This document shows positions 9,063-50,785 of a DNA stretch of 64,000 bases, piece after piece. The notes beneath the pieces are model-generated. The model made no database searches and was not told where the DNA came from. It was given only the letters and a program-made list of their open reading frames with translations. The DNA lies in contig OZ024741.1 of assembly GCA_964016885.1 (NCBI GenBank), forward strand, positions 236,096,001-236,160,000. Reading direction: 5' to 3'. The stretch's first letter is position 1; every line of letters begins with the position of its first letter. Made by a program: the position numbers and the translations under genes. This DNA comes from Eledone cirrhosa. Its lineage: Eukaryota.

Positions 9063-9425
9063 TGATGGTATCCAATGATGTTGACTTGTTCTTCTTTTTG
9101 GTAAATAGCATCTTGGTTAAGAGAGTGGGACTGGCTTTGTGCAGTGCCTTTGCTCACTATAAAAGCTTCACGGCACAGGCATTGCTTTATATCTGGAGAT
9201 CTCTCTGCACTTGTCCTCACATGGGCCCAGCACTATGTGTCAATAATTGTCCTACCATGGGCCTAGCACTATGTGTCAATGATTGTCACAGGTGTAGTGT
9301 TTGTACCAGAGGTTTCAAGTCGCTGGCTGGACTAAAAAGTCACACTCGTTCAGCGCTTCGTTAGGGGTTATCCTACATGGATGTAAAGTAGTGGCCGTAC
9401 TCGAAAACGAGTTGGCAGCCACCAT
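9063..9425 (+). mobile_element. Bipartite non-autonomous RTE derivative, copy 1 (5'-truncated, small internal duplication)
   Basis: Matches the 3' part of 39933-40543; ends ggccgtactcgaaaacgagttggcagccaccat then TA array. Confidence 0.9.
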
Positions 9426-14906: not shown

Positions 14907-14910
14907 GTAT

Positions 14911-14950: not shown

Positions 14951-14967
14951 GTATATGTATATATATG

Positions 14968-14998
<31 letters not shown>

Positions 14999-15169: not shown

Positions 15170-15206
<37 letters not shown>

Positions 15207-15915
15207 GTATATATATGTATGTATATATATGTATATATATGTATGTATATATATGTATATATATGTATATATATATATGTATGTATATATATGTATATAT
15301 ATGTATATATATGTATATATATATATATGTATGTATATATGTATATATATGTATATATATGTATATATATATATATGTATGTATATGTATGTATATATAT
15401 GTATATATATATATATATATGTATGTATATGTATGTATATATATGTATATATATATATGTATGTATATATATGTATATATATGTATATATATGTATATAT
15501 ATGTATATATATATATATGTATGTATATGTATGTATATATATGTATATATATATATATGTATGTATATGTATGTATACATATGTATATATATATATATAT
15601 ATGTATGTATATATATGTATATATATATATATGTATGTATATGTATGTATACATATGTATATATATATATATATATGTATGTATATATATGTATACATAT
15701 GTATATATATATATATATATGTATGTATATATATGTATATATATATATATATGTATGTATATATATGTATATATATATATATATGTATGTATATATATGT
15801 ATATATATATATATATATGTATGTATATATATGTATATATATGTATATATATATATATGTATGTATATGTATGTATATGTATGTATATATATGTATATAT
15901 ATGTATATATATATG

Positions 15916-15966
<51 letters not shown>

Positions 15967-15971
15967 GTATG

Positions 15972-16022
<51 letters not shown>

Positions 16023-16127
16023 GTATGTATATATATATATATGTATGTATATATATATATATATGTATATATATAAGTATATATATATATATGTATGTAT
16101 ATATATATATATATGTATATATATAAG

Positions 16128-16192
<65 letters not shown>

Positions 16193-16227
16193 GTATGTAT
16201 ATATATATATATATGTATATATATAAG

Positions 16228-16302
<75 letters not shown>

Positions 16303-16655
16303 GTATGTATGTATATATATATATGTATGTATATATATATATGTATGTATATAATGTATGTTTATATATGTATATATATGTATGTATGTATATATGTATA
16401 TATATATATGTATGTATGTATATATGTATGTATGTATATGTATGTATGTTTATATATGTATATATATATATGTATGTATGTATATATGTATGTATATATG
16501 TATGTATGTATATGTATGTATGTATATATATGTATGTATGTATATATATGTATGTATATATGTATATATATGTATATATATATATATATATGTATGTATA
16601 TATATATATGTATGTGTATATATATTATATATGTATGTATATATATATATGTATG

Positions 16656-16752
<97 letters not shown>

Positions 16753-16787
16753 GTATATATATATATATGTATGTATATATATATATG

Positions 16788-16819
<32 letters not shown>

Positions 16820-16847
16820 TGTATGTATATATATATATGTATATATG

Positions 16848-16922
<75 letters not shown>

Positions 16923-16975
16923 GTATATATATATGTATATATTTGTATCTGCTGATATTACTTCTTGTTGTTTTA

Positions 16976-17020
16976 ATTGCCCTGATGAGTCCTTAATAGG
17001 ACGAAACATTGTCGGCTAAT
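16976..17020 (+). ncRNA. Minimal type I hammerhead ribozyme, copy 1 (in a ~120-bp module 16943-17064)
   Basis: gcc-CTGATGA-gtcc(ttaata)ggac-GAAA-c-att-GTC-ggc: full core, 4-bp stem II, stem I gcc/ggc, predicted cleavage after 17013. Confidence 0.85.
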
Positions 17021-17073
17021 GAAAACTTTTGATGTATTCAAGGCTTCTTTGTTTTACTCTCTTAATATATATG

Positions 17074-18841: not shown

Positions 18842-18944
18842 AGATGACCCCTCCGGGAGAGATGACCCCGTAGCCTTTGTCAAGGCAGAATTCTAGGAGA
18901 AGGAAACTCTGATATAACACCTGCAACCCTGATGGTATCCAATG
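18842..18944 (+). mobile_element. Bipartite RTE derivative, copy 2 (cut by assembly gap)
   Basis: agatgacccctccgggagagatgacccc...ctaggagaaggaaactctgatataacacc matches 34521-34623. Confidence 0.85.
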
Positions 18945-19572: not shown

Positions 19573-21193
19573 GAACAGTCAGTAAGGTTAGAATTAACAA
19601 CGAATATAGTGAAGAGTTTAGCGTAAAAGTTGGTGTCCATCAGGGCTCTGTACTTAGCCCCCTACTATTTATTATTGCCCTTCAGGCTATAACAGAGGAG
19701 TTCAAGACCGGCTGCCCATGGGAACTCCTATACGCAGATGATCTAACGCTCATAGCTGAATCAATGACCGAACTAGAGAAGAAATTCCAAACGTGGAAGC
19801 ACGGCCTAGAATCAAAAGGCCTTAAAATTAACCTGGCTATGACTAAAGTTCTAGTTTGTAGGAAAGAAAATAAGGCAGCGGTCCCATCGGGGAAATGGCC
19901 ATGCTCAGTGTGTAGGAAAGGCGTAGGTAGAAACTCCATTTTATGTCCCAAATGCAAAGTATGGGTGCATAAAAGATGTAGTGGGATCACAGGTAAGCTA
20001 ACTAAGAACATAGATTTTACATGTGGCCGGTGCTCTGGTGCAATAAGTAGCAGCAAGTGCCCACAAAATACTAGCTCCTTCAACTGCGCAGAGGGTTCTA
20101 TAGAAATAGTGGACAGCTTCCGTTATCTGGGTGACAAAATCAGCAGTGGGGGAGGGTGCTCTGAAAGTACAGTAGCTAGAGTCAGAACTGGATGGAAAAA
20201 GTTCAGAGAGCTTATACCACTATTAGCCGCTAGAGGGTTCTCCCTAAAAATGAAAGGCAGGTTATACGATGCCTGCATACGAACAGCAATGCTGCATGGC
20301 AGTGAGACCTGGGCATTGTGTGCAGAGGATATACGCAGACTAGAGAGGAACGAAGCTTGCATGCTCCGCTGGATGTGCAATAGTAATATACGTGAACGGC
20401 AAAGCATAAACGAACTAAGGAAAAAATTAGAAATAAGAGGGATCAGATGTTGTTTACTCGAGAGAAGGCTACGTTGGTACGGTCACGTGATGCGCATGAA
20501 AGACGACAGCTGTATAACAAAGTGCAGGGCAATAAAGATAGACGGTAGCCACGGAGTAGGCAGACCCAGAAAAACATGGGACGAGCTGATAAATTCCGAC
20601 CTCACACGCTTACACCTCTCCAAGACAATGTCACTGGACCGAGACCTTTGGCGGTACTCAGTAATAGAGAAGACCCGCCTTACCTAAATACAAACTAAAA
20701 ACCTACTACAGTCAGTAGGCATCTCTATCAAAACACACCCCCGTCCCACCACCTCCACCCCACCCACACCGCCCCTTTCAATGTAAAGTCATGTTGGTCC
20801 CACAACATCCAGGCCGAAACAAATGAGATCGTGTAGGTGTCACGACAAAAAACACACAGTCCACGCTGTAAATGTGGCCGTGTAGGCAACACGGTAAAAA
20901 CCTCCCAGCCCCACACTGTAAATGTGGTTGGTGTTAGGAAGAGCATCCAGCTGTAGAAAACCCGCCAGACAGTCCACGCTGTAATGTGGCCGTGTAGGCA
21001 ACACGGTAAAAACCTCCCAGCCCCACACTGTAAATGTGGTTGGTGTTAGGAAGGGCATCCAACTGTAGAAAACCCGCCAGACAGTCCTATGCGAGCAAGA
21101 CAACCACTCTTGCCTCAAGTGGGAAAACCCCCGTCCAAACCCATGCAAGCGTGGAACACGGACGCTAAACCTGATGATGATGATGATGATGAT
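19573..21193 (+). mobile_element. 5'-truncated RTE-clade LINE with PHD finger in RT (family P2), (GAT)n tail
   Basis: Frame open from ~19575 ([16 protein letters not shown]) to 20687; C4HC3 finger at 19896-20033; ~113-bp tandem duplication in the 3' UTR; ends gatgatgat. Confidence 0.9.
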
Positions 21194-22318: not shown

Positions 22319-25300
22319 TAACTTTGAATAACTTTGAAATGTTTTGGCCAGTATTGGCCCAGGCCATGTCTAACTTAATAGCACCACCTGGCGAAGTCTT
22401 TCAATTCAGGATTTGGGCACCATGACCCATTCGAGAAGAGAATTACTGTTTGCGGAGACATATCTGGGTGTGGGTGGTTTGTCCGGGATTACTTGGAGGA
22501 ATTTGTCCAAAGACTTCTTGAATTTTGTGTGGTCAGTTTCTGTTTTGACGTGTCCTGGTGTGATGTTGAAGAGAGCAGGGCCGATTGAGGTGAAATAATT
22601 GTGCCGTACTGTTGTTATGAGTTGCGATTTAGATTTTTGAATGGGACGGATAGCACGGGGCCCAAGCCTTGGGTGTATCTTGAAGGCGATGCCAACATCA
22701 TTTGGGCAGTGATGATGGAACATTTTCCACATCATGCAGATAATATAACGCTCACGGCGACGTTGGAGTGAGTAAAGTTTCAGCTTTTCTAGTCGACCCC
22801 AGTAGTCAAGGTCTGACATGCCATCTATCTTTTTCGTGATTGCTCTTTGAGGAGCTTCAAGTTTCATGATACTTTGTTTCGTGTGGGGAGACCACAGTGG
22901 ACAACAGTATTCAAGGTGTGGTCGGGCAAAAGTAGAGAAGAGAAGGATAATGGTGTGGGAATCTCTCGACTGGAAGGTTCTGAGGATCCAGGAACACATT
23001 CTGCGGGCCATGTCAACTTTGCTGCTTATATGCGTGGCCCAGCTTATGTTGCTGTCCACGGTTACTCCCAAGTCTCTGATGTTGTTAGATGCTACGAGAG
23101 TTTCCCCGGAGGGAAGGGAGTACGGGAGTTTCAGAGCATCCTCTTTTCCAAAGTGGATCAGTTCGAATTTGTCTTCGTTCAGTAACATGTTGTTCTTTTC
23201 CGCCCATTGGGTAACAGCCAGTAGGTCTGACTGAAGGCTTATCCGGTCATCCACGCCATTGATGACCTTTTGGAGCTTGGAATCATCAGCGAAAATTTTA
23301 ATGTTGCTGTGTTTGATGATGTCAGTGATGTCATTAATATAGATGATGAAGAGAAGTGGGCCCAACACAGTGCCTTGTGGGACCCCACTACTGACTTTGG
23401 CTGGGCTGGATTTGACTCCTTCAACTACAACATGTTGGGTTCTGTTTGACAGGAAGCCCTTGATCCACTGCAGCAGCTTTCCAGTGACACCAATATTGGA
23501 CAGCTTTCTCAGTAGAATGTTATGATCAACCCTGTCAAAGGCCTTGCTGAAATCAAGGTAGATAACATCAGTGTTGGAACCCTCTCCCAAGGCTCTCAAA
23601 ATGTCATCAAAGTGATGCAGTAGCTGCGTCAGGCAATCCCTTCCATTACGGAATCCATGTTGGTTGGAGTTCAGCATATTGTTACTCTCAAGGAAGTGGG
23701 TCATTCGCGATCTCACCACTCTCTCAAATACCTTAATGATATGAGAGGTGAGTGAGATTGGACGGTAATTCACGGCAAGGGATTTGTTTCCTTTTTTGAT
23801 AACTGGGACAACAGACTGGGATAGAAGGTTTTCTGGCACATATCCAGCATCCAGTGAGTTCCGCCACAGATTGGCAAGAGGAGATGCAAGTTGGTGTTGA
23901 CACGCCTTCAAGACACAAGCAGGGAACCTATCGGGACCTACTGATGAATTATGCTTGATTTCCTTTATTGCCGCTAAGACATCAGGGGCGCCAAACGTTA
24001 TGTCCGATAAGGTGTAATGGGGAGTAACATCGCCGATACAGCCCAGATCGGCCATATCAGGATTGCTGAAAACAGAGCAGTATTGTTTCTGCAGTATCTC
24101 ACCCATGGTTTTAGCATTGTCTTGAAGAGTGCCATTTTCATCAATTAGAGGGCCAACAGTAGAGCCAGTGATTTTGTGTTTTTTTGCAAATGAAAAGAAC
24201 ACTTTGGGATTGAGTTTGATCTTCTCAATGGCCCAGGCCTCTTCAGCTCTTCTCTGATTGTTGATGAGGGACATTATGTTGTTTTGGAGGTTATGTTTTT
24301 TAATCTCTAGTGATGAAATGGCAGTCAAGTTGATGTGTTGCTGCTGACAGTATTTCAACTTGTTGATTTTTTTGTTCGTTCTCTTAACTTTTCTGATGAG
24401 CGTTTTTCTATTTCTAGGGATTCTGCTCTTAGATTTGTTTATAGTTCTTAATGGGGTGTGTTTTGCACATATGTTTGTAACAGTGTCCACAAATGTCTGC
24501 CAGGACTTTTTGATGTTAGTGGGTGTATGAGTGTGCGTGAAGGACCAGTCGACATGTGCAAGATCATGACTGATCGCTTCCCAGTTTGCATTGTGGAAAT
24601 CCATAGCGTCAAACGGATGGACAGGAGAGATGACATTGGGTTTGTATATTGGACGGTGGAATCTCAGATCACAGAGAACCATGTCATGATCAGAGAGTAG
24701 AGTTTTCTCCACTGCAATATTGTGGATATTGTCAGTGTGATTGCTGAAAATTAAGTCTAGGACGTTTTTGTGGCACCTCGTTGGTTCGAGCACCAGTTAG
24801 GATAGGAAGAAATCATCCATGAAGTCAAGAAGCGATTCCACTGCTTCCCTGTCAGAGGTTGAGGCAGAAGAACCTGGTGGCAGGCTGTTTGTGGACCAGT
24901 CAACTCCGGGGAGGTTGAAGTCCCCCATCATTAAGATGTTGTCAAGGTGACACTCTTGGATGAAACACTTTATGCTGTTGAGGCATTCCTTGAAGCATGG
25001 TACAGGCGTTTGGGGTGGCCTATAGAGCCCAACTACTATTAGGTTGTTGGTTTGACTGAATACAGTGACTGCTTCGCAGTATCCATTAGTGAATATGTTC
25101 ATAACCTCTGTTGAGAAAGAATTATGGACATAAATGGCAGTCCCGCCCTTTCTTCTGCCAGCGCGATCAGCACGGATGGCTTTGAAATTTTTCACTTTCA
25201 CCTCGGCTTCCAAGTGGAGGTCACTGAGATGGGTTTCAGTGAGGACGAAGAAAGGGATGTGGTTTGGATGGACATCAATCCAGTCCTACAGGAATTTGAT

Positions 25301-25795
25301 CTTCCATTTTTGAGTATTGGTGGAAGGGCTGATGCCTTGGGCGTTAAGCAAAAATGTAGAGGCGAGAGTGGATGGTTTTAATTGTTTTGGTGTGTTGTTA
25401 ATTTGTTTGTTTGTTAATGGCAGCAATGGGAGTTTGTGCAGTGGGGTGATAGTGGAGGGTGGTGCTGGGTGATAGCTCGAATGTTTTTTTCCAGTTCTTT
25501 TGCCAGATTCATTATGGCTAAAAAAGAGGAAGAAGTTTCCTGTTTAGAAGACTGTTGGTGACTGTGGTAGTGGTTATTTTTATGTAGGCTATGGTTTTTG
25601 TTTTTGCTTTTATTTTTAATTTTATTTTCATTTGTCCGACGGGTCCCCGGGAGATGGGTAAAGGGACAATCCCGGTCTAAACACAATCTGTCTCGCAGGG
25701 AAAAGCGGCAGATTTGTGGATTCCTTGTTTGAGTTATTGGTGGTTGTGTTGGTGTTAAATTAGAGTATGTATTATGGTGGTGGCTGTTTGTGGGG
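22319..25795 (-). mobile_element. CR1-group LINE family A, copy 2
   Basis: Colinear with 9889-13362 (offset 12430), same 5' and 3' ends, about 99% identical. Confidence 0.92.
22406..25426 (-). pseudogene. ORF2 of copy 2 with a nonsense mutation in the APE domain
   Basis: CAA>TAA at 24797-24799 splits ORF2 into the 138-aa and 795-aa ORFs of the track. Confidence 0.9.
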
Positions 25796-25828
<33 letters not shown>

Positions 25829-25962
25829 ATATATATATATGTATGTATGTATGTATATGTATATATATATATATGTATATGTATGTATATGTATATATAT
25901 ATATATGTATATGTATGTATATATATATGTATGTATATGTATGTATATATGTATATATGTAT

Positions 25963-26532
25963 GTACAACCTGTCCCATGGTCGGGTCGTTGGCGACTAAA
26001 CTGGCAACCCCACCAAGGTTTCTTGGTGAGGAGGGTGACTTTGGACATCCTGCAGGACTAAAAACAAAACCTGTCAAAAGGCAAAGGAGCTCTTAAGAGT
26101 CAATGGCCATCCAAAATCACCGGGAGAGATGACCCCTTAGCCTTTGTCAAGGCAGAATTCTAGGAGAAGGAAAACTCTGATATAACACCTGCAACCCTGA
26201 TGGTATCCAATGATGTTGACTTGTTCTTCTTTTTGGTAAATATCATCTTGGTTAAGAGAGTGGGACTGGCTTTGTGCAGTGCCTTTGCTCACTATAAAAG
26301 CTTCACGGCACAGGCATTGCTTTATATCTGGAGATCTCTCTGCATTTGTCGTCACATGGTACCATGGGCCCAGCACTATGTGTCAATAATTGTCACAAGT
26401 GTAGTGTTTGTACCAGAGCTTTCAAGTCGCTGGCTGGACTAAAAAGTCACACTCGTTCAGCGCATCAGTAGGGGTTCTCCTACATGGATATAAAGTAGTG
26501 GCCGTACTCGAAAACGAGTTGGCAGCCACCAT
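25963..26532 (+). mobile_element. Bipartite RTE derivative, copy 3 (near full length)
   Basis: Colinear with ~39973-40543; embedded in TA array. Confidence 0.92.
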
Positions 26533-26725
26533 GTATGTATATGTATGTATATGTATGTGTATATGTATGTATATGTATGTATATATGTATGTATATGTAT
26601 GTATATATATGTATGTATATGTATGTATATATATATATATATATATGTATGTATATGTATGTATATATATATATATATATATGTATGTATATGTATGTAT
26701 ATATATATATGTATGTATATGTATG

Positions 26726-26843
<118 letters not shown>

Positions 26844-26963
26844 TGTATGTATATATATGTATATATATATATATATATATGTATGTATATATATGTATAT
26901 ATATATATATATATATGTATGTATATATATGTATATATATATATATATGTATGTATATATATG

Positions 26964-26995
<32 letters not shown>

Positions 26996-27251
26996 TGTAT
27001 GTATATATATGTATATATATATGTATGTATATGTATGTATATATATGTATATATATATGTATGTATATGTATGTATATATATGTATATATATATGTATGT
27101 ATATATATGTATATATATATATATATATATGTATGTATATATATGTATATATATATATATATATGTATGTATATATATGTATATATATATATATATATAT
27201 GTATGTATATATATGTATATATATATATATATATATGTATGTATATATATG

Positions 27252-27291
<40 letters not shown>

Positions 27292-27360
27292 TGTATGTAT
27301 ATATATGTATATATATATATATATATGTATATATATGTATATGTATATATATGTATATAT

Positions 27361-27486
<126 letters not shown>

Positions 27487-27515
27487 GTATATATATATAT
27501 GTATGTATATATATG

Positions 27516-27546
<31 letters not shown>

Positions 27547-27576
27547 GTATGTATATATATGTATATATATATGTAT

Positions 27577-27617
<41 letters not shown>

Positions 27618-28085
27618 TGTATATATATATGTATATATATATATATGTATGTATATATATGTATATATATGTATATATATATGTATATATATATGTATAT
27701 ATATATATATGTATGTATATATATGTATATATATATATGTATATATATATATATGTATGTATATATATGTATATATATGTATATGTATGTATATATATGT
27801 ATATATATGTATATATATGTATATATATATATATGTATGTATATATATGTATATATATATGTATGTATATATATGTATATATATGTATATGTATGTATAT
27901 ATATGTATATATATGTATATGTATGTATATATATGTATATATATATATATGTATGTATATGTATGTATATATATGTATATATATATATATGTATGTATAT
28001 GTATGTATATATATGTATATATATATATGTATATATATATATGTATATATATATATGTATGTATATATATATGTATATATATATG

Positions 28086-28118
<33 letters not shown>

Positions 28119-28271
28119 GTATGTATATATATATGTATATATATATGTATATATATATATATGTATGTATATATATATGTATATATATATGTATATATAT
28201 ATGTATATATATGTATATATATATGTATATATATATATATGTATGTATATATGTATATATATATGTATATA

Positions 28272-28316
<45 letters not shown>

Positions 28317-28331
28317 GTATATATATGTATG

Positions 28332-28378
<47 letters not shown>

Positions 28379-28396
28379 GTATATATATGTATGTAT

Positions 28397-28432
<36 letters not shown>

Positions 28433-28460
28433 GTATGTATGTATATATATGTATGTATGT

Positions 28461-28497
<37 letters not shown>

Positions 28498-29055
28498 ATG
28501 TATGTTTATATATGTATATATATATATGTATGTATGTATATATGTATGTATATATGTATGTATGTATATGTATGTATGTATATATATGTATGTATGTATA
28601 TATGTATGTATGTATATGTATGTATGTATATATATGTATGTATGTATATATATGTATGTATGTATATATATGTATGTATATATGTATATATATATATATA
28701 TGTATGTATATATATATATGTATGTATATATATATATGTATGTATATATATATATGTATGTATATAATGTATGTTTATATATGTATATATATATATGTAT
28801 GTATATATGTATGTATGTATATGTATGTATGTATATATATGTATGTATGTATATATATGTATGTATGTATATATATGTATGTATATATGTATATATATAT
28901 ATATATGTATGTATATATATATATATATGTATGTGTATATATATATATATATGTATGTATATATATATATGTATGTGTATATATATATATATGTATATAT
29001 ATATATGTATGTGTATATATATATGTATGTGTATATATATATATATATATGTATG

Positions 29056-29087
<32 letters not shown>

Positions 29088-29093
29088 TGTATG

Positions 29094-29125
<32 letters not shown>

Positions 29126-29131
29126 TGTATG

Positions 29132-29176
<45 letters not shown>

Positions 29177-29189
29177 GTATATATGTATG

Positions 29190-29220
<31 letters not shown>

Positions 29221-29273
29221 GTATATATATATGTATATATTTGTATCTGCCGATATTACTTCTTGTTGTTTTA

Positions 29274-29318
29274 ATTGCCCTGATGAGTCCTTAATAGGAC
29301 GAAACATTGTCGGCTAAT
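29274..29318 (+). ncRNA. Minimal type I hammerhead ribozyme, copy 2 (module 29240-29363)
   Basis: Core identical to copy 1; predicted cleavage after 29311; two substitutions in the flanking module. Confidence 0.85.
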
Positions 29319-29371
29319 AAAAACTTTTGATGTATTCAAGGCTTCTTTGTTTTACTCTCTTAATATATATG

Positions 29372-29534: not shown

Positions 29535-30184
29535 CCAGCGACTGGCCAGCGCATCACTGGTACTCTCTTTTGTTGACTCCGTGGAGAGCCATAACTCTAT
29601 GCTGTAAAGCAATTATAGTAATACTGGACTGTAATACGATCGGCTTCAACTATACAAACTCTTGAAAGTCAACAGTTGACATAATCTGGTAATCTTGTAT
29701 CAGTAATGACGGTAATATATATATAGATATATGTGTGTGTGTGCGTGTAAGTGAGTAGAGTAGCGTGTGTGTGTGTTTGTTGTGTGTGTGAGTGTTGCTG
29801 TGTGCACGCATATGTATGCGTGTGTGTGTATGTCGTACGTATAAGTGTCAATAAGTAATTTTTTTTTTTTTTTTTTTTTTTTTGCGCGGGGACATAGAAA
29901 TAATCGGGCTGGATGCCCGATCGCGCAGTTAAACCACTGGGAGTGAAGAACCCCTAGCCCATGTCAGGGTATTCTTCTAGGAGAAGGCATCTCAGGAAAC
30001 TGGGTTAACTCCGATATAAAACCTGCGGCTCAGTAGTTACCGATGATGTTGATCTTTTCTTCTTTTCGGGTTATAGCTACTGTCGCTCAGAGAGTGGGAT
30101 TGGTTCAGTGCACAGTCTTTCCTCACTTTAAAAATATTCGTCACGCACAGGCATTGCACGAGTGCATTAATAATTATTAATAGT

Positions 30185-30221
<37 letters not shown>

Positions 30222-30226
30222 TATTA

Positions 30227-30259
<33 letters not shown>

Positions 30260-33200
30260 CCCAATTCAATGATGTTCCAGAACAATGTAAACGAGATAAT
30301 TGCCAATTTGGGTTCTGGAACAAAAGAGATCATTGGCAATAAGGGCAGGGGCCCCAAGTTATCACAACCTGGGCCCGCCCGTCATCGTGCCATTGTAATA
30401 GAGCCAAACAGGGCATTTAGTCTTGGCTGCTGGAACGTACGGACGCTGCTTGACAGGGATTCTTTGGAGCGTCCTGAACGAAGGACCGCTCTTGTTGCGA
30501 AGGAGCTTCGACGTTACGATCTTGACATCGTGGCTTTGTCTGAGACGAGGTTAGCTGGAGATGGTCATCTTACGGAATTTTGTGGAGAATATACATTCTT
30601 CTGGAAAGGAAGAGATGAAGGAACCAGAAGAGAGGCTGGGGTAGGATTTGCTGTTAAGACTGTACTGGTGAATAAATTAGAAGAATTCCCAGTGGGGATT
30701 AGTGAGCGTCTTATGTCCATGAGAGTTCCGCTGGACAAGGGAAGATATGCTGCCCTGGTGAGTGTGTATGCTCCAACTATGAATTCTGTCGATGAAGAAA
30801 AACTGTCCTTTTACCATGCCTTGAAAGGTGTTTTAAGAAATATCCCTCAGGCAGACAAAGTCATCGTGCTTGGTGACTTTAATGCTAGAGTGGGTAGGGA
30901 TTTTAACACATGGAATGTGATCGGAAGGCATGGGGTGGGAAAGTGTAACAGCAATGGTATGCTCTTGCTGCAGATGTGTGAGGAGCTGGATCTGTGTGTT
31001 ACCAACACCATGTTCCAACAAAAGAACAAATTCAAGACCACATGGATGCATCCTGCATCTAAGGAATGGCATCTTTTGGACTACGTCCTAGTCAGGATGC
31101 GTGACAGACAGGATGTGCGGTGTGTTCGTGTTCTTCGTGGAGCTGAGTGCTGGACGGACCACCGCCTGGTACGCGCAAAAGTGAATCTAATCACCAAACG
31201 TAAAATCCGGGCTCCTGGTGTTACCCTGCCCAAAAGATTGAATGCTGCTCGTCTTAAGGATAAAAATGTGAAGAGGACATTGGAAGAAGAGATGCAGGCT
31301 GCAGATCTTGGTGAGGATTGGCCGACCCTTAAAAAGTCGGTTTATGATGTAGGCAGACGTGTTCTGGGATTGGTGCAGAGAAAACATCAGGACTGGTTTA
31401 ATGAGAAAGATGTGCATATAGATGACTTGTTGGCTGATAAGAGGCGCGCTCTGTCACGCTACTTGACGGCAAGACCACAGGAGAGGAATACGTTGCATGA
31501 GGAGCTCAGGGATGTAAAATCACGTGTTAGGCGGAGTCTTTCTCAGATGAAGGATCAGTGGTGGAGTGAGAAGGCTGGTGAGATACAAACTGCGTCTGAT
31601 TGCAATAACACAAAGCTGTTGTACAGTCTCTTGCGTGAGGTTTATGGACCGTCTTCTTCTCTGGTGACACCGATTCGCAGCAGGGATGGCAAAGAACTTC
31701 TTCGTGACTCACAGGGAATTCTACGAAGGTGGCGAGAGCACTTTGATGATCTTTTGAATCAGCCGTCTGTCGTCAGTGAAGATTTCCTCAATCTCATTCC
31801 GGAAAGTCCTGTGAAAGTAGCTCTCGCAGAGCCTCCGACACTTGTGGAGGTTGCAGTGGCTATTTCGAAGCTGAACAGTGGAAGATCTCCAGGTATGGAT
31901 GGCATACATGCTGAGCTCCTACAATATGGTGGTGAGAGACTCCTGCAACATCTTCACTCTCTGTTTGGAAGGATATGGGCTAATGAATCCGTGCCTGAGG
32001 ACTGGAGAGATGCAGTAATGGTGGTCTTGTACAAGGGAAAGGGTAACAGGAATGATTGTGGGAACTACAGAGGTATATCATTGCTTTCTGTCGTGGGGAA
32101 AGTTTTATGTAGGGTGCTTCTGGACCGTCTGCTGACACACATTGCAGATTGTGTCCTTCCTGAAAGTCAATCTGGTTTTCGTGTTGGACGCGGCACTACT
32201 GATATGATCTTCTCAGCTAGACAGCTCCAGGAGAAGTGCATTGAACAGGGCTTGGATCTGTATCAGGTTTTTGTCGATCTGACAAAGGCTTTCGATACTG
32301 TCAACAGAGATGCATTATGGAAGGTTCTCCAGAAACTTGGTTGCCCTGATAAGTTCCTTGCTTTAGTTAGGTCTTTCCATGACGACATGAAGGCTTGGGT
32401 TAATGTCGGAGGTAACATGTCGGAGCCTATCTCAGTAAAAAATGGAGTGAAACAGGGGGATATTCCAGCACCGACCCTGTTTGCCATATACTTTGCAATG
32501 GTTTTCTGTGTTGCATTCAGGAATTGCGAGCATGGTGTTTACATCCGATATCGAACCTCAGGCAGCATATTTAACATCAGGCGCTTTGCTGCGAAGACAA
32601 AAGTATTTACATCAGTCATAAGAGACCTCTTGTATGCAGATGATTGTGATCTTGTAGCGCACACAGAGAGTGATATGCAGCACATTTTGAATGTATTTTC
32701 TGACGCTTGCACTGCCCTGGGTTTGACTGTCAGTCTCAAGAAAACCGTCGTCATGTACCAACCTGCACCTGGTAGGCAGTACACTGAACCAAACATCTAT
32801 GTGTATGGCAAGCGACTTGGAGTGGTTGATCAGTTTGTCTACCTGGGAAGCACTGTCAATCGATACGGCAACCTTGACAGTGAAATCTCACTTAGGATTA
32901 GGAAAGCAAGTGATGCTTTCGGAAAGCTAGAAAGGCGACTCTGGGGTCGGCGAGACATATGCAGGAGGACAAAGGTAAGGGTGTACAGGGCATGTGTACT
33001 CTCTTGTCTTCTTTATGCCTGCGAGACCTGGGTCACATATCGACGCCACCTTGAGCAATTGGAGCGTTTCCATCAGATGTGTCTCAGACGGATACATGGC
33101 GTTCACTGGAGGGACCACATCAGTGATGTCGAGATTTTGGAAAGCTCTATGTGTGACAGTATAGAAGCTCTTGTGCTTAAGCAGCGACTCCGTTGGAGTG

Positions 33201-33822
33201 GTCACCTTGCCAGGATGAAGGATTCTAGAATACCAAAACAACTCTTCTATGGAGAGTTGGTTAAAGGAAAACGACCGCCACATAAACCAAAAAAGAGGTA
33301 TAAGGATTCCTTGAAGGCCTCTCTGAGAGACGCTAACATCTCTGCTGATACATGGGAAAATATTGCTGCTGATCGTAATAAATGGAGAAAGACTGTATAT
33401 GAGGGAAAAGTTGCCTTTGAGGCATCTCGAATCGCACACGAGAAAGTAAAGCGGGACGTGAGGAAGGGTATTGCTGTTGCACTTCCAGACGGCGAGGGTC
33501 CTCCTATGTTTCTGACATGCAGCGTCTGTGCGAGACTCTGCCTAAGCAAAGCTGGACTCGAAAGTCATCTTCGCAGTCATAAAGTAAGACCAGTGGTTGA
33601 CTACCAGGCTGCTGTTGGAGATGCTACTCATCATGCTTGCCAAACATGTGGTAGAGAATGTAAATCAGCAGGAGGACTCAAGCGACATGCAAAAGTACAC
33701 GAACTCCAACCACAGCCGACTATTCCCAGTAAATGTTTTGGTTGCCGACTCTGTGCAAGACATTTTGGATCATTGGCTGGGCTAAAAAGCCACATTCGAT
33801 CGCAGCACTGTTAGTTGCTATC

Positions 33823-33864
<42 letters not shown>

Positions 33865-33943
33865 GCTTATGTGCGTGCGTGTGTGTGTATATATATATGA
33901 ATATGTATATTATTATTGTTGTTGTCGTTATTATTATTATTGC

Positions 33944-33980
<37 letters not shown>

Positions 33981-34152
33981 GTTATTAATGTATGTGTGTA
34001 TATATGTGTGAGTGTATGTGTATGTATGTGTGTGTGTATATATGTATGTATGTGTATGTATGTGTGTGTGTATATATATGTGTATATATATATATGTGTA
34101 TATATATGTGTGTATATATATATCTTTTTTTTATTTTTTTTTTTTTTTTATT

Positions 34153-34194
<42 letters not shown>

Positions 34195-34278
34195 TTTTTT
34201 TTTTTTTTTTATTTTATTTTTATTTTTTTTTTTTTATTGTGCAATGGCCATACTCGATAACGAGGGGGCAGCCATCAT
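29535..34278 (+). mobile_element. Apparently full-length RTE-clade LINE with triple C2H2 zinc finger
   Basis: TA arrays at both ends; 5' UTR has the RTE-type motif ttctaggagaagg..aactccgatataaaacc; single ORF; terminal stem-loop atggc..ctcgataacgag..gccat. Confidence 0.9.
30269..33814 (+). CDS. RTE polyprotein: APE + RT + 3 C2H2 zinc fingers (1181 aa, intact)
   Basis: WNVRTL, ALSETR, YAPT, LGDFNARVG, LDYVLV, TDH; NYRGISLLS, QSGFR, FVDLTKAFD, GVKQG, LYADD, YLGS; fingers CSVC..HLRSH, CQTC..HAKVH, CRLC..HIRSQH. Confidence 0.95.
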   Translation: MMFQNNVNEIIANLGSGTKEIIGNKGRGPKLSQPGPARHRAIVIEPNRAFSLGCWNVRTLLDRDSLERPERRTALVAKELRRYDLDIVALSETRLAGDGHLTEFCGEYTFFWKGRDEGTRREAGVGFAVKTVLVNKLEEFPVGISERLMSMRVPLDKGRYAALVSVYAPTMNSVDEEKLSFYHALKGVLRNIPQADKVIVLGDFNARVGRDFNTWNVIGRHGVGKCNSNGMLLLQMCEELDLCVTNTMFQQKNKFKTTWMHPASKEWHLLDYVLVRMRDRQDVRCVRVLRGAECWTDHRLVRAKVNLITKRKIRAPGVTLPKRLNAARLKDKNVKRTLEEEMQAADLGEDWPTLKKSVYDVGRRVLGLVQRKHQDWFNEKDVHIDDLLADKRRALSRYLTARPQERNTLHEELRDVKSRVRRSLSQMKDQWWSEKAGEIQTASDCNNTKLLYSLLREVYGPSSSLVTPIRSRDGKELLRDSQGILRRWREHFDDLLNQPSVVSEDFLNLIPESPVKVALAEPPTLVEVAVAISKLNSGRSPGMDGIHAELLQYGGERLLQHLHSLFGRIWANESVPEDWRDAVMVVLYKGKGNRNDCGNYRGISLLSVVGKVLCRVLLDRLLTHIADCVLPESQSGFRVGRGTTDMIFSARQLQEKCIEQGLDLYQVFVDLTKAFDTVNRDALWKVLQKLGCPDKFLALVRSFHDDMKAWVNVGGNMSEPISVKNGVKQGDIPAPTLFAIYFAMVFCVAFRNCEHGVYIRYRTSGSIFNIRRFAAKTKVFTSVIRDLLYADDCDLVAHTESDMQHILNVFSDACTALGLTVSLKKTVVMYQPAPGRQYTEPNIYVYGKRLGVVDQFVYLGSTVNRYGNLDSEISLRIRKASDAFGKLERRLWGRRDICRRTKVRVYRACVLSCLLYACETWVTYRRHLEQLERFHQMCLRRIHGVHWRDHISDVEILESSMCDSIEALVLKQRLRWSGHLARMKDSRIPKQLFYGELVKGKRPPHKPKKRYKDSLKASLRDANISADTWENIAADRNKWRKTVYEGKVAFEASRIAHEKVKRDVRKGIAVALPDGEGPPMFLTCSVCARLCLSKAGLESHLRSHKVRPVVDYQAAVGDATHHACQTCGRECKSAGGLKRHAKVHELQPQPTIPSKCFGCRLCARHFGSLAGLKSHIRSQHC

Positions 34279-34520: not shown

Positions 34521-34944
34521 AGATGACCCCTCCGGGAGAGATGACCCCTTAGCCTTTGTCAAGGCAGAATTCTAGGAGAAGGAAAACTCTGATATAACAC
34601 CTGCAACCCTGATGGTATCCAATGATGGTGACTTGTTCTTATTTTTGGTAAATATCATCTTGGTTAAGAGAGTGGGACTGGCTTTGTGCAGTGCCTTTGC
34701 TCACTATAAAAGCTTCGCGGCACAGGCATTGCTTTATATCTGGAGATCTCTCTGCACTTGTCGTCACATGGTACCATGGGCCCAGCACTCTGTGTCAATA
34801 ATTTTCACAAGTGTAGTCTTTGTACCAGAGTTTTCAAGTCGCTGGCTGGACTAAAAAGTAACACTCGTTCAGCGCATCGGTAGGGGTTCTCCTACATGGA
34901 TATAAAGTAGTGGCCGTACTCGAAAACGAGTTGGCAGCCACCAT
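34521..34944 (+). mobile_element. Bipartite RTE derivative, copy 4 (5'-truncated)
   Basis: Matches ~40130-40543; same 3' terminus. Confidence 0.92.
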
Positions 34945-38254: not shown

Positions 38255-39013
38255 AGAGACTTGGGAGTAACCGTGGACAGCAACATAAGCTGGACCACGC
38301 ATATAAGCAGCAAAGTTGACATGGCCCGCAGAATGTGTTCCTGGATCCTCAGAACCTTCCAGTCGAGAGATTCCCGCACCATTATCCTTCTCTTCTCTAC
38401 TTTCGCCCGACCACACCTTGAATACTGTTGTCCACTGTGGTCTCCCCACACGAAACAAAGTATCATGAAACTTGAAGCTCCTCAAAGGGCAATCACGAAA
38501 AAGATAGATGGCATGTCAGACCTTGACTACTGGGGTCGATTAGAACACCTGAAACTTTACTCACTCCAACGTCGCCGTGAGCGTTATATTATCTGCATGA
38601 TGTGGAAAATGTTCCATCATCACTGCCCAAATGATGTTGGCATCGCCTTCAAGATACACCCAAGGCTTGGGCCCCGTGCTATCCGTCCCATTCAAAAATC
38701 TAAATCGCAACTCATAACAACAATACGGCACAATTATTTCACCTCAATCGGCCCTGCTCTCTTCAACATCACACCAGGACACGTCAAAACAGAAACTGAC
38801 CACACAAAATTCAAGAAGTCTTTGGACAAATTCCTCCAAGTAATCCCGGACAAACCACCCACACCTGGATATGTCTCCGCAAACAGTAATTCTCTTCTCG
38901 AATGGGCCATGGTGCCCAAATCCTGAATTGAAAGACTTCGCCAGGTGGTGCTATTAAGTTAGACATGGCCTGGGCCAATACTGGCCAAAACATTTCAAAG
39001 TTATTCAAAGTTA
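38255..39013 (+). mobile_element. CR1 family A, copy 3 (3' ~760 bp)
   Basis: [10 protein letters not shown]...EWAMVPKS* and the same 3' UTR and tail as copies 1 and 2, in opposite orientation. Confidence 0.92.
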
Positions 39014-39932: not shown

Positions 39933-40543
39933 GGTCAGGTCACCAGTTGGTGCTACTGGTAACATGTATCCCAGTACAACCTGTCCCATGGTCGGGTCGT
40001 TGGCGACTAAACTGGCAACCCCGCCAAGGTTTCTTGGTGAGGAGGGTGACTTTGGACATCCTGCAGGACTAAAAACAAAACCTGTCAAAGGGCAAAGGAA
40101 CTCTTAAGAGTCAATGGCCATCCAAAATCACCGGGAGAGATGACCCCTTAGCCTTTGTCAAGGCAGAATTCTAGGAGAAGGAAAACTCTGATATAACACC
40201 TGCAACCCTGATGGTATCCAATGATGTTGACTTGTTCTTCTTTTTGGTAAATATCATCTTGGTTAAGAGAGTGGGACTGGCTTTGTGCAGTGCCTTTGCT
40301 CACTATAAAAGCTTCACGGCACAGGCATTGCTTTATATCTGGAGATCTCTCTGCACTTGTCATCACAGGGTACCATGGGCCCAGCACTATGTGTCAGTAA
40401 TTGTCACAAGTGTAGTGTTTGTACCAAAGTTTTCAAGTCGCTGGCTGGACTAAAAAGTCACACTCGTTCAGCGCATCAGTAGGGGTTCTCCTACATGGAT
40501 ATAAAGTAGTGGCCGTACTCGAAAACGAGTTGGCAGCCACCAT
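39933..40543 (+). mobile_element. Bipartite RTE derivative, copy 5 (longest, ~611 bp)
   Basis: Structured 5' head, RTE 5'-UTR core, zinc-finger remnant and 3' stem-loop; no long ORF. Confidence 0.92.
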
Positions 40544-41269: not shown

Positions 41270-44200
41270 TCAGCATGTACACATGGGAGGTCGGGTACCC
41301 TGTATTACTGCGTGACGCCAGAAGTCACGGTCGTGTGTCATTGACTTTGAGAGGTGTAGTTGGGTAAGGTCGGCTTTTATCACCTCATCCCAAGTCATCT
41401 TGGGTCTCCCCACTCCGCGGTTTCCATCAACTTCTAGTGCTCTGCACCTTTTTATGCAGCTGTCATCCTTCATACGCATCACATGTCCATACCAGCGTAA
41501 CCGCCTCTCCTGCACGCAGCATTTGATTCCTCTTATGCTCAGTCTCTCTCTCAATTCATTTATGCTTTGTCGTTCACGTATATTACTGTTACACATCCAT
41601 CGGAGCATGCAGGCTTCGTTTCTCTCTAATCTACGTAAGTCTTCCACCTTCAGCGCCCAGGTCTCACTACCATGCAACATCGCTGTTCGGATACACGCAT
41701 CATACAGTCTGCCTTTCATTCTGAGGGAGAAGCCTTTTGCAGCTAGCAGTGGTAGTAGTTCCCTAAACTTCTTCCATCCCGTTCTTACCCTAGTTATTGT
41801 ACTTTCTGAGCACCCACCTCCGTTGCTAATTCGGTCACCTAGGTAGCAGAAGCTGTCTACTGTTTCTACAGGGCCCTCCCAGAGATTGGTGGTACTTGTT
41901 TCCTGTGGCTGTTTGCTTGCTGTTTCAGCACAGCTGCTGCATGTGAATCCTACATTCTTAATTAAGCTTCCTGAGATCCCGCTACATCTCTTGTGTACCC
42001 ATTGTTTGCATTTGGGGCAAAGAATGGAGTTCCTACCTACACCTTTCCTACATACTGAGCAAGGCCATTTCCCTGAGGGGATCTGGGTTCTGTTTTCTCG
42101 TCTACTTATAAGGACCTTAGTCTTTGTCATGTTGACTTTGAGGCCCTTTCTCTCTAGTCCCTGCTTCCAGGTTTGGAATTTATTCTCTAGTTCTACCATA
42201 GATTCAGCTATGAGTGCGAGGTCATCAGCATACAGGAGTTCCCATGGGCATCCGGTCTTAAACTCCTCCGTTATTGCCTGCAGGACTATGATGAACAGGA
42301 GAGGGCTAAGAACAGAGCCCTGGTGGACCCCAACCTGTACGCTAAATTCCTCGCTATACTCATTGCCAATCCTAACTTTGCTGACTGCTCCCCTATACAT
42401 GGCTTGTACCGCTTTCACAAGCCATTCATCTACTCCTAGTTTTCTAAGAGCCCACCAGATTACTGCACGTGGAACTCTGTCAAAGGCTTTCTCAAGGTCG
42501 ACAAATGCCAAGTAGAGTGGCTTACTTTTAGCTAGGTACTTTTCCTGTAATTGCCTCACAAGGAAGAGCGCATCAGTGGTGCCTTTCCCTGGAACAAACC
42601 CAAATTGCATCTCGTCTATATTCACCCGGTCCCTAATCAGCTGTGCTATAACTCTTTCTGTTACTTTCATGACCTGGTCCATCAACTTTATACCTCTATA
42701 GTTTCCTCTATCTAGTGCATCGCCTTTACCTTTGTAGCAGTTGACAATGATGCTACTGCACCAATCTTTTGGTATGGCCCCCTCTAGTATTACCTGGTTA
42801 ACGATACGTGTGGTTATAGTGTGACCTACAGACCCAGATGCCTTCAGCATCTCGGCAGCTATACCCGATGGACCGGTTGCCTTCCCTATCTTCATATCTC
42901 TGATTGCCTTACTTACTACGCTGCCGCTGACTTGTATTGCTGGTCCCTCTATAGGGTCTACGTGGGGTAGGGTCTCTTCTTCCCATGCATTCTCCTCATT
43001 TAGTAATCTATCATAATGACTCTTCCATGCATCTTTCTTCTCAGCACTTGTGAGGGCAAGCTCACCTTTATCATTCCGGATACACTTCTCTCCAATGACA
43101 TCACAACTATCTCTGACACACTGCCTCGCAATCTTGAATACCTCCTGTTTCTGGTCCTCACGTTGTAAAACATGCTTGAATTTTCTATCCTCTGCTTCCC
43201 TCCTAGCTAAGTATACTTGTCGCCTAGCTTCCCTCTTGGTCTCTATGTAATGTACCCTGCTCCCCCCGTTCTTCCATTCTTTCCATGCCTGTCTCTTGGC
43301 CTTGACTGCTTCATCTACCTTATTGTTCCACCACCAAGTCACTCTCCTCCTGCTTGAGGTCTTACTCCAGCCACAAACCTCATCCGTCGCCTCTAGTAAG
43401 TTATTTTTTAGGAACTCCCAGTTCTCTTCTACGTTAAATGTCTCTATCTGTTCTTCTTTACTGTCGTAGGCGTTGAGTAAAATATCTTTAAATCTGTTAC
43501 TGGTTGAGGGGACTTTCAGCTTCCAGATCTTTCTTCTCCAGGTTGGCCTCTGTTTCAGGGCTCGTCTAGTTCTGACCGTGAGGTCGCTGACAACTAAGCT
43601 ATGTTGGGATGTACATTCCTCACTAGGGAAGGCTTTTGTGTTTACGACCGTCCATCTGTCACGTCCTCTGATGAGGATAAAATCTAACTGACTAGAGTGC
43701 TCCCCTGATCTATAGGTGATCAGGTGGTTGTCGGGTTTTTTAAAGTTTGTGTTACATATCGACATGTCATTGGCGTCGCAGAATTCTAGAAGTCTGAATC
43801 CTTCCTCATTCCTTGTGCCAACTCCATGGCCTCCATGTACTCTATTGAAGCCGTCGCAGTGTTTACCTACGTGTCCGTTAAAATCTCCTGCAATGATTAG
43901 GAAGTCCTTGTCGTCTGTTAGAGCAGTAGTGTGTATTAGGGACTCGTAAAACCTATCCTTAAGTTCGTCTGGCAGCCCCGATTGGGGTGCGTAAGCTGAT
44001 ATTATTGTGGTAATTGTCTTATTCAGGACTAGTCTGAGTTTAATGATTCTTGCATTTACCCTGTACACTGAGATTACTTTATCTACCCACTTGTCAGCTA
44101 ATAGTATACCTACACCACCCATCCCATCGTCATTTCCCACCCAGAAAAATTTGTAGCACTGGCTTTTTCCTACAAGGACTCTAGCAGACCCTCCTCTCCA

Positions 44201-44389
44201 TCTAGTCTCTTGCACACAGCATACATCAACTTCCTTTCGCTCTAGCATTTCTACGATTTCTCCTGCTCTTCCTTTCATTGAGCCTACATTGATGGTACCA
44301 ACTCGGAGTTTTGGGCATTTGTCGACACTCGTAGGGGAGGGTCTCTGGGTTGGCGCTTCACGTGGGTGCTTGGTAGCTCGCAGATTCAT
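41270..44389 (-). CDS. RTE polyprotein: APE + RT with inserted PHD-type finger (1039 aa, intact)
   Basis: GTINVGSM, CVQETRW, AYAPQ, AGDFNGHVG; [28 protein letters not shown]; C4HC3 at ~41930-42067. Confidence 0.95.
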   Translation of the reverse strand: MNLRATKHPREAPTQRPSPTSVDKCPKLRVGTINVGSMKGRAGEIVEMLERKEVDVCCVQETRWRGGSARVLVGKSQCYKFFWVGNDDGMGGVGILLADKWVDKVISVYRVNARIIKLRLVLNKTITTIISAYAPQSGLPDELKDRFYESLIHTTALTDDKDFLIIAGDFNGHVGKHCDGFNRVHGGHGVGTRNEEGFRLLEFCDANDMSICNTNFKKPDNHLITYRSGEHSSQLDFILIRGRDRWTVVNTKAFPSEECTSQHSLVVSDLTVRTRRALKQRPTWRRKIWKLKVPSTSNRFKDILLNAYDSKEEQIETFNVEENWEFLKNNLLEATDEVCGWSKTSSRRRVTWWWNNKVDEAVKAKRQAWKEWKNGGSRVHYIETKREARRQVYLARREAEDRKFKHVLQREDQKQEVFKIARQCVRDSCDVIGEKCIRNDKGELALTSAEKKDAWKSHYDRLLNEENAWEEETLPHVDPIEGPAIQVSGSVVSKAIRDMKIGKATGPSGIAAEMLKASGSVGHTITTRIVNQVILEGAIPKDWCSSIIVNCYKGKGDALDRGNYRGIKLMDQVMKVTERVIAQLIRDRVNIDEMQFGFVPGKGTTDALFLVRQLQEKYLAKSKPLYLAFVDLEKAFDRVPRAVIWWALRKLGVDEWLVKAVQAMYRGAVSKVRIGNEYSEEFSVQVGVHQGSVLSPLLFIIVLQAITEEFKTGCPWELLYADDLALIAESMVELENKFQTWKQGLERKGLKVNMTKTKVLISRRENRTQIPSGKWPCSVCRKGVGRNSILCPKCKQWVHKRCSGISGSLIKNVGFTCSSCAETASKQPQETSTTNLWEGPVETVDSFCYLGDRISNGGGCSESTITRVRTGWKKFRELLPLLAAKGFSLRMKGRLYDACIRTAMLHGSETWALKVEDLRRLERNEACMLRWMCNSNIRERQSINELRERLSIRGIKCCVQERRLRWYGHVMRMKDDSCIKRCRALEVDGNRGVGRPKMTWDEVIKADLTQLHLSKSMTHDRDFWRHAVIQGTRPPMCTC

Positions 44390-50554: not shown

Positions 50555-50555
<1 letters not shown>

Positions 50556-50785
50556 CTTCACGGCACAGGCATTGCTTTGTATCTGGAGATCTCTCTGCAC
50601 TTGTCGTCACATGGTACCAAAGGCAAAGCACTATGTGTCAATAATTGTCACAAGTGTAGTGTTTGTACCAGAGTTTTCAAGTCGCTGGCTGGACTAAAAA
50701 GTCACTCGTTCAGCGCATCGGTAGGGGTTCTCCTACATGGATATAAAGTAGTGGCCGTACTCGAAAACGAGTTGGCAGCCACCAT
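50555..50785 (+). mobile_element. Bipartite RTE derivative, copy 6 (3' 230 bp)
   Basis: Encodes [20 protein letters not shown]; same terminus gttggcagccaccat. Confidence 0.9.

What the first reader, a model, noticed from the sequence alone, without database searches (positions are those of the whole stretch)
29535..34278. Candidate system: triple-C2H2 RTE LINE plus a co-oriented non-autonomous partner colonising TA arrays
Seen: an intact 1181-aa APE-RT ORF ends in three C2H2 fingers (33518-33811) sharing a S.(A/G)GL..H helix. Six short elements share its 5'-UTR core, last finger and 3' stem-loop. All seven end in CAT followed by TA/TATG array and all are on the plus strand, while CR1-A and the PHD-RTEs occur in both orientations. 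Established: typical RTEs lack C-terminal finger arrays, though C2H2-bearing RTEs are, to my recollection, reported from octopus. Inference: an oriented microsatellite-targeting retrotransposition system in which the fingers may read the target or the RNA 3' end.
Basis: partly seen in the sequence, partly recalled or inferred. Interest (0 to 1): 0.85.

Follow-up and report, generated by a model that had tools for sequence, protein, structure and literature searches.

The report
Microsatellite-targeting three-finger RTE retrotransposon
A young jumping gene with three zinc fingers, and about 25,000 copies of a short non-coding relative, sit almost always inside TA/TATG microsatellites and face one way relative to the repeat, an insertion habit I did not find reported for this class; the fingers' role is untested, and they likely help grip nucleic acid rather than read the target.

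Summary
Observation largely confirmed. 30269-33814 is an intact single-ORF APE-RT LINE with three C2H2 fingers; the 30 best genomic copies all keep the ORF (99.7% identical). Targeting is real genome-wide: 68 of 92 short-element 5' junctions abut TA/TATG arrays (background 6%), G-strand:C-strand 61:2, with 8-14 bp target-site duplications. Arrays lie upstream more often than downstream, so they are target, not tail.

Corrections: (1) the window LINE is 5'-truncated by about 840 bp. (2) The 610-bp short element (24,906 exact 3' ends) is an internal-deletion derivative of a decayed sister family (54-58% aa identity), not of this LINE; it likely borrows this LINE's enzyme now. (3) CR1-A and PHD-RTE also use TA arrays; only the G-sense polarity is specific. 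(4) Co-orientation is local; genome-wide both strands are equal.

The three-finger form is a well-supported clade (52 rows). Its fingers have long linkers and S/A/G/S at base-reading positions, and other RTEs are reported to bind an upstream T-stretch and prime by 3' microhomology, so finger readout is not needed. Works like Waldo (ACAY-targeting R1 elements). New variant of a known kind; no earlier scan note matched.

The parts
29535..34278 (+). RTE-type LINE, family A, 5'-truncated copy (full length about 5.4 kb)
29931..30157 (+). conserved 5'-UTR core shared with short elements (69% to N1)
30269..33814 (+). single ORF, 1181 aa: APE endonuclease (about aa 55-301), RT (YADD at 32633), three C2H2 fingers
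33518..33808 (+). three C2H2 fingers with 19- and 14-residue linkers
33815..34243 (+). microsatellite-rich 3' UTR carried by the element itself
34244..34278 (+). 3' terminal two-helix RNA stem-loop ending CATCAT
39934..40543 (+). full-length non-autonomous element N1 (1-430 = 5' UTR, 430-610 = last finger and 3' end of sister family P)
25963..26532 (+). N1 copy (41-610) inside a duplicated array whose paralogue at 13361-16943 has no element
34532..34944 (+). 5'-truncated N1 copy (198-610)
9063..9425 (+). 5'-truncated N1 variant (276-610, 88%)
18853..18944 (+). N1 fragment cut by an N gap; same 5' junction as the 34532 copy
50555..50785 (+). 5'-truncated N1 copy (378-610)
26533..29241 (+). example target array, TA/TATG, 301 G and 0 C on the elements' sense strand

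Best explanation
This is a young RTE-type LINE whose copies, and those of a 610-bp non-coding relative, lie inside (TA)n/(TATG)n microsatellites with the G/T-rich strand as their sense strand; it likely gets there by target-primed reverse transcription in which the protein grips T-rich DNA upstream of the cut and the RNA's 3' AU end pairs with the nicked strand. Shown: arrays at both junctions, polarity, 8-14 bp duplications starting AT, intact ORFs, a covarying 3' stem-loop, and the short element's origin from sister family P. Inferred: a bottom-strand nick at AT^AC or AT^AT; polarity from the RTE-wide upstream T preference, since the TATG strand has twice the T of the CATA strand; the three fingers act as a clamp on the RNA 3' stem-loop or the DNA backbone rather than as base readers; the living family A now mobilises N1 in trans; each insertion leaves an oriented array that attracts the next, giving co-oriented clusters.
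For: Position-ordered and random copies: 68 of 92 N1 5' flanks are arrays against 6% of 57,040 random 21-mers; G:C is 61:2 next to the junction and 48:2 beyond a TSD length (p=4e-16 and 2e-12). Genome-wide, 20,702 of 24,906 exact 3' ends are followed by (RT)4; 7,496 by (AY)4, of which 93 of the first 100 listed are pure AT. Full-length N1 (n=57): array of 20 nt or more upstream in 51, downstream in 42, upstream only 12, downstream only 3. Informative duplications of 8-14 bp in 7 of 145 copies, plus a 9-bp one read from family A copy L055. Family A 5' junctions: 23 of 32 in arrays, G 18:C 3. Sister three-finger copies: G 15, TA 7, C 1, none 2 of 25. Controls at the 3' flank: CR1-A G19:C20 of 50; PHD-RTE G3:C11 of 50. 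Empty paralogous array in the window. Stem-loop covariation 0.249, reached by 0 of 500 shuffles. RTE upstream-T and microhomology model: PMC6007223.
Against: Nothing here tests binding. Polarity tracks the three-finger lineage within this genome, which equally fits finger readout. 24 of 92 N1 5' flanks and 9 of 32 LINE 5' flanks are not arrays (some are internal deletions or 5' inversions), so specificity is not absolute. Duplication length is unreadable in 137 of 145 copies (88 pure-repeat matches, 49 with none found), and an eighth informative match was 30 bp. Only sister families P and B were checked for young intact copies, so another donor for N1 is not excluded. The LINE's own 48-nt 3' end folds no better than shuffles (z -0.41; N1 z -2.92). 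Flank samples come mostly from one contig.
Confidence: 0.6

Rival explanations
1. The three fingers are the target reader: they bind the TATG/TA array upstream of the cut in one orientation and position the endonuclease.
For: All three-finger families sampled in this genome end at G-polarised or pure TA arrays (22 of 25), while families without these fingers show no G-sense polarity. The recognised DNA lies upstream of the nick, beyond reach of RNA pairing. Helix residues are strongly conserved across 45 proteins. The weak Foldseek hits are mostly DNA-bound C2H2 arrays.
Against: Positions -1, 2, 3, 6 are S, A/G, G, S/N/R, and the same S/A-x-x-G-L-x-S-H helix occurs in single-finger relatives; linkers have medians of 17 and 16 residues rather than the short canonical linker (canonical linker recalled). 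No Foldseek hit reaches E 0.001. An upstream T preference is reported for other RTEs (PMC6007223). Flanks of three-finger relatives in other organisms could not be obtained.
Confidence: 0.22
2. Polarity comes only from RNA-DNA pairing: transcripts read through into the donor's own flanking array, so their UAUG tail can prime only on arrays of one orientation.
For: After the terminal CAT come GTAT (62) or ATAT (54) of 145. 3' microhomology is general for RTE, CR1 and L2 elements (PMC6007223).
Against: Copies whose duplication is not array-like (L012, L221, L228, L255) still have a G-type array upstream; arrays are upstream-only 12 versus downstream-only 3 (p=0.035).
Confidence: 0.12
3. The arrays are the element's own tail, made by slippage, as for lepidopteran RTEs; there is no targeting.
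For: RTEs seed microsatellites (PMC2887409, abstract). Extra CAT units appear at some 3' ends.
Against: 5' junctions, including 39 of 56 truncated ones, abut arrays. Some copies have no 3' array but a clean duplication. An empty paralogous array exists.
Confidence: 0.03
4. Passive accumulation or assembly artefact: elements survive or are mis-joined in repeat arrays.
For: Three unrelated LINE families abut arrays; the window has a local duplication and an N gap.
Against: The youngest copies (98-100% identical) show the pattern most strongly, which survival bias does not predict. G-sense polarity and a fixed junction register are family-specific.
Confidence: 0.03

Closest known systems
RTE-2_OV of Octopus vulgaris (PMC9115989)
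   Same: Single-ORF RTE with APE, RT and a C2H2 finger; microsatellite 3' UTR starting at the stop codon; likely active.
   Different: 1109 aa with one annotated C2H2 domain against 1181 aa with three; its five published primers and probe match this LINE with 5-7 mismatches each; no target preference appeared in the passages read.
Waldo elements (WaldoAg1, WaldoAg2, WaldoFs1), ACAY-microsatellite-specific (PMC3812793)
   Same: APE-type LINEs inserting in the same repeat (ACAY is the reverse complement of RTGT).
   Different: Insect R1-clade, two-ORF elements (recalled); here a single-ORF RTE with three C-terminal fingers and abundant non-autonomous partners. Convergent, not homologous targeting.
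General RTE integration signature (Nishiyama and Ohshima 2018, PMC6007223)
   Same: T-rich DNA upstream of the cut, duplications of 7-15 bp, 3' hairpin with compensatory changes, 3' repeat matching the first TSD base; platypus Plat_RTE1 ends in (TA)n.
   Different: There a weak bias in otherwise dispersed insertion; here about three quarters of insertions are in arrays with about 30:1 polarity.
Bipartite non-autonomous RTEs (RTESINE1/2, WALLSI3, RTE-N2_Lch; PMC5786205)
   Same: N1 is the 5' UTR joined to the 3' end of an RTE by internal deletion.
   Different: N1 keeps a finger-coding remnant, inherits the array targeting, and appears to have outlived its parent.

Membership tests
RTE clade LINE | single ORF with APE then RT, catalytic motifs intact | tested here: met
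RTE clade LINE | no separate ORF1 | tested here: inconclusive
   no ORF of 150 aa or more in the window's part of the 5' UTR; the further 840 bp of full-length copies were viewed but not ORF-scanned
RTE clade LINE | 3' stem-loop and microsatellite-like end | tested here: met
RTE clade LINE | target-site duplication 7-15 bp | tested here: met
   8-14 bp in 7 informative N1 copies and 9 bp in L055
RTE clade LINE | RT phylogeny with named RTE references | tested here: inconclusive
   tree of 76 rows held no named reference RTE; it shows a three-finger clade (SH-aLRT 100, quick method) nested among single-finger relatives
RTE-2_OV | same sequence (published primers and probe match) | tested here: not met
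   5-7 mismatches for each of 5 oligos; its full sequence was not readable in the supplements
Waldo (R1 clade) | inserts in ACAY microsatellites | tested here: met
   (works like)
Waldo (R1 clade) | two-ORF R1 structure (recalled) | tested here: not met
   one ORF with RTE-like motifs
Bipartite non-autonomous RTE | 5' part and 3' end of one parent LINE | tested here: met
   N1 1-430 is 96-99% and 430-610 mostly 93-97% identical to family P
Bipartite non-autonomous RTE | no small-RNA-derived head | tested here: met
   no Rfam family near threshold; the head is the 5' end of family P
Ribozyme-bearing RTE (twister of Perere-3; HDV-like) | [quoted passage not shown] | tested here: inconclusive
   no Rfam ribozyme hit in N1 or in the window's part of the LINE 5' UTR; the LINE's true 5' end was not scanned
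Classical DNA-reading C2H2 array | short linkers and base-contacting residues at -1, 2, 3, 6 | tested here: not met
   linkers 19 and 14 aa; S, A/G, G, S/N/R at those positions
Classical DNA-reading C2H2 array | sequence-specific DNA binding | not testable with these tools
   needs SELEX or EMSA

The most novel reading that the evidence does not exclude
A whole RTE lineage triplicated its C-terminal finger into a new kind of strand-specific microsatellite reader that works with small residues and long linkers. That gave an APE-type, single-protein LINE a portable safe-harbour targeting module, and its radiation plus tens of thousands of partners helps build the host's giant polarised TATG arrays.
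Probability: 0.22. Interest if true: 0.8.

Novelty: new variant of a known kind. Interest (0 to 1): 0.55.

Why it matters
Target-specific APE-type LINEs are known mainly from the R1 and Tx1 clades (PMC4640811); RTEs are regarded as dispersed inserters and are being developed as RNA-only gene writers with random integration (PMC13708176). A young single-ORF RTE that goes about three times in four into TA/TATG arrays, with many intact copies, a natural 610-bp template and sister families to compare, makes it directly testable how an APE element gains specificity: endonuclease, fingers or RNA tail. It also bears on octopus-type genomes, where active RTEs have been linked to brain function; an element that mostly lands in microsatellites argues for harm avoidance and may help explain the array load.

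Tried and rejected
Ribozyme lead: parts of the 5' UTR resemble twister motifs by eye, but Rfam gave no ribozyme hit and single-sequence folds were not significant (z -1.48 and -0.18); left open. Flanks of three-finger relatives in other organisms: the metagenome scan used generic RT patterns and returned one single-finger element not followed by a TA array (L261); finger-motif scans of genome contigs (5 loci) and viral contigs (3 loci) gave no relative. Cluster look-up of 10 homologues gave no usable host names; the Atlas lists look-alike clusters as mostly Mollusca where known (lead only). Sequencing runs: no RNA holder listed; the LINE ORF had shares of 0.26 or more in 10 runs under 7 organism codes; N1 was laid on 4 runs and covered in all, whole in one contig of X7, without informative flanks. 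Foldseek on the finger model gave no match at E 0.001. The RTE-2_OV sequence could not be read from the supplements, so the comparison rests on primers and text. The careful tree search did not finish; the quick tree is reported. The search of earlier findings: one unrelated note by sequence, none by place. Window-wide co-orientation as evidence was rejected: neighbours within 2 kb agree 15 of 15, at 2-20 kb 11 of 18, beyond 20 kb 33 of 66.
Full report
1. Observation. The window is rich in TA/TATG arrays. The ORF at 30269-33814 encodes 1181 aa with Exo_endo_phos, RVT_1 and sub-threshold C2H2 hits; catalytic motifs are present. Three C-x2-C-x12-H-x3/4-H fingers lie at 33518-33808 and are modelled confidently (mean pLDDT 83.5, pTM 0.46, low confidence in the linkers). 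Six short copies lie on +. One (18853) is cut by an N gap and shares its 5' junction with the 34532 copy, so six of seven 3' ends are verifiable.

2. The LINE (family A). The 30 best genomic matches all keep an open frame of 1191 codons and are 99.66-100% identical over the ORF (chosen as best hits). Full-length copies start about 840 bp upstream of the window copy (L044: 5,403 bp, ORF at offset 1,590). Four of 30 show an inverted 5' part (L032, L038, L056, L058). The exact 26-nt 3' tip occurs 5,173 times. At least 13 of the first 30 are a second non-autonomous family, N2, with the LINE's core at about 87-93% (rows L143-L145 partly cut from view). Of 74 proteins (73 homologues plus the window's), 45 have three fingers, 4 two, 18 one and 7 none. 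All three-finger rows fall in one 52-row clade with SH-aLRT 100 (quick tree, no named references).

3. The short element (N1). It is 610 bp with 24,906 exact 3' ends, 12,481 forward and 12,425 reverse. It is only 69%, 64% and 85% identical to family A over core, finger and tip. A gapped pattern found a sister three-finger family P (215 matches, many of them N1 variants). In 19 of 20 fetched loci that could be oriented, N1 430-610 matches P at mostly 93-97% (range 83-97), N1 1-430 matches its 5' UTR at 96-99% in the two copies that reach it, and P is 54-58% identical to A in protein. The 25 best P copies are 91.8-97.1% identical pairwise with no complete ORF (longest 863 aa); 12 copies of family B have median 92.3%; the 30 closest N1 copies have median 98.5% and reach 100%. 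So N1 likely outlived its parent and is now copied by family A (inference; other sister families not checked).

4. Target or tail. In 92 position-ordered or random N1 copies, 68 have an array at the 5' junction (6% background), G:C 61:2; beyond a TSD length, 54 arrays, 48:2; truncated copies 39 of 56. Genome-wide 20,702 of 24,906 ends are followed by (RT)4 and 7,496 by (AY)4, 93 of the first 100 of which are pure AT, about 26:1 by estimate. Among 57 full-length copies (best-hit and position-ordered loci mixed), arrays are upstream in 51, downstream in 42, upstream only 12, downstream only 3. Duplications are readable in 8 of 145 copies: seven of 8-14 bp, all beginning AT, and one of 30 bp. In the window, a duplicated CR1-A/array/119-bp block carries N1 in one copy and a plain array in the other. 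Family A: 23 of 32 5' flanks are arrays, G 18:C 3:TA 2. Other three-finger families: G 15, TA 7, C 1, none 2 of 25 (two rows are near-duplicates).

5. Controls. CR1-A 3' flanks: 46 of 50 arrays, G19:C20; 5' flanks G6:C6 of 24. PHD-RTE: 25 of 50 arrays, G3:C11. By the same 30-nt test N1 gives G48:C4 of 78 and LINE-type ends G17:C1 of 30. TA arrays are thus a shared sink; G-sense polarity is what singles out the three-finger lineage. Co-orientation holds within 2 kb (15 of 15) and vanishes beyond 20 kb (33 of 66).

6. Mechanism. The 3' ends of 13 representatives support two helices: 90.6% of cells paired, covariation 0.249, 0 of 500 shuffles, with relatedness not controlled by the shuffle. Junctions imply a bottom-strand nick at AT^AC or AT^AT with 2-4 nt of RNA microhomology (inferred). 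The recognised array lies upstream of the nick, where RNA cannot pair, so protein must read it. PMC6007223 proposes that RTE proteins bind a T-stretch one turn upstream and prime by microhomology; on a TATG/CATA duplex that alone would give the observed polarity. The fingers carry S, A/G, G, S/N/R at the base-reading positions, share that helix with single-finger relatives, and have long linkers. I therefore put RNA or backbone clamping ahead of base readout (0.6 against 0.22); neither is tested.

7. Comparison with the literature. RTE-2_OV (PMC9115989: passages, supplement list, part 1 of file 1, searches of files 2 and 3) is similar in plan but a different element. Waldo elements target ACAY (PMC3812793, passages). 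Most target-specific LINEs are early-branched, Tx1 or R1 (PMC4640811, passages). Bipartite non-autonomous RTEs are known (PMC5786205, passages). RTEs seed microsatellites (PMC2887409, abstract). Also read: PMC6007223 (abstract, parts 2-3, Discussion), PMC8501958 (parts 1 and 3 of 9), PMC13282606 (parts 1-2 of 3: 13 recently active RTE families in O. vulgaris, no target analysis), PMC13708176, PMC12988792 and PMC10294476 (passages). Nine searches showed no report of a three-finger RTE clade or of polarised TATG targeting by an RTE. Repbase, the Zenodo library of PMC13282606 and subscription papers were not seen and may already list these families. That the host is an octopus-type genome is my inference from repeat content, not a call result.

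8. Verdict. A real, very active system and a new variant of known kinds: it works like Waldo, is built like an RTE, and has bipartite partners.

Noticed in passing
window 9893-13360, 22321-25793, 38257-39009; loci L161-L190, L399-L418: CR1-A (2,544 exact 3' ends genome-wide) also sits in TA arrays (46 of 50 3' flanks, 17 of 23 readable 5' flanks) without polarity; a TA-targeting CR1 may deserve its own look.
   Followed up: partly
window 41270-44389 (-), 19575-21188 (+); loci L191-L220, L419-L438: PHD-containing RTE-like LINE with (GAT)n tail, 11,870 exact 3' ends; half abut TA arrays, with a slight opposite bias (G3:C11).
   Followed up: partly
L134, L136, L141, L142, L150, L154, L156-L158, L160: Second non-autonomous family N2 carries family A's core and 3' tip but the GTCAGG-type head that family A lacks, suggesting family A replaced the first 1.2 kb of its 5' UTR.
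   Followed up: partly
L100:3768-4298, L111:858-1400, L117: Further short families (N3) share the same head but end in the 3' tips of other sister LINEs; each three-finger family seems to spawn its own partner.
   Followed up: partly
window 29535-29582 versus 61711-61758: The LINE 5' UTR contains a 48-bp antisense match (79%) to a SINE-like repeat; it resembles a MetaSINE domain (recalled).
   Followed up: no
window 39934-40060 and 29925-30040: The 5' head and core contain twister-like motifs and a covarying hairpin by eye; Rfam gave no ribozyme hit.
   Followed up: partly
window 44692-49924: 98-bp minisatellite array of about 5 kb with 97-99% identical units.
   Followed up: no
window 9893-17062 and 22321-29360: Local duplication of a CR1-A/array/119-bp block (CR1-A copies 99.0% identical).
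   Followed up: yes
L032, L038, L056, L058: Four of 30 near-full-length LINE copies have inverted 5' segments, as in L1 twin priming (recalled).
   Followed up: no
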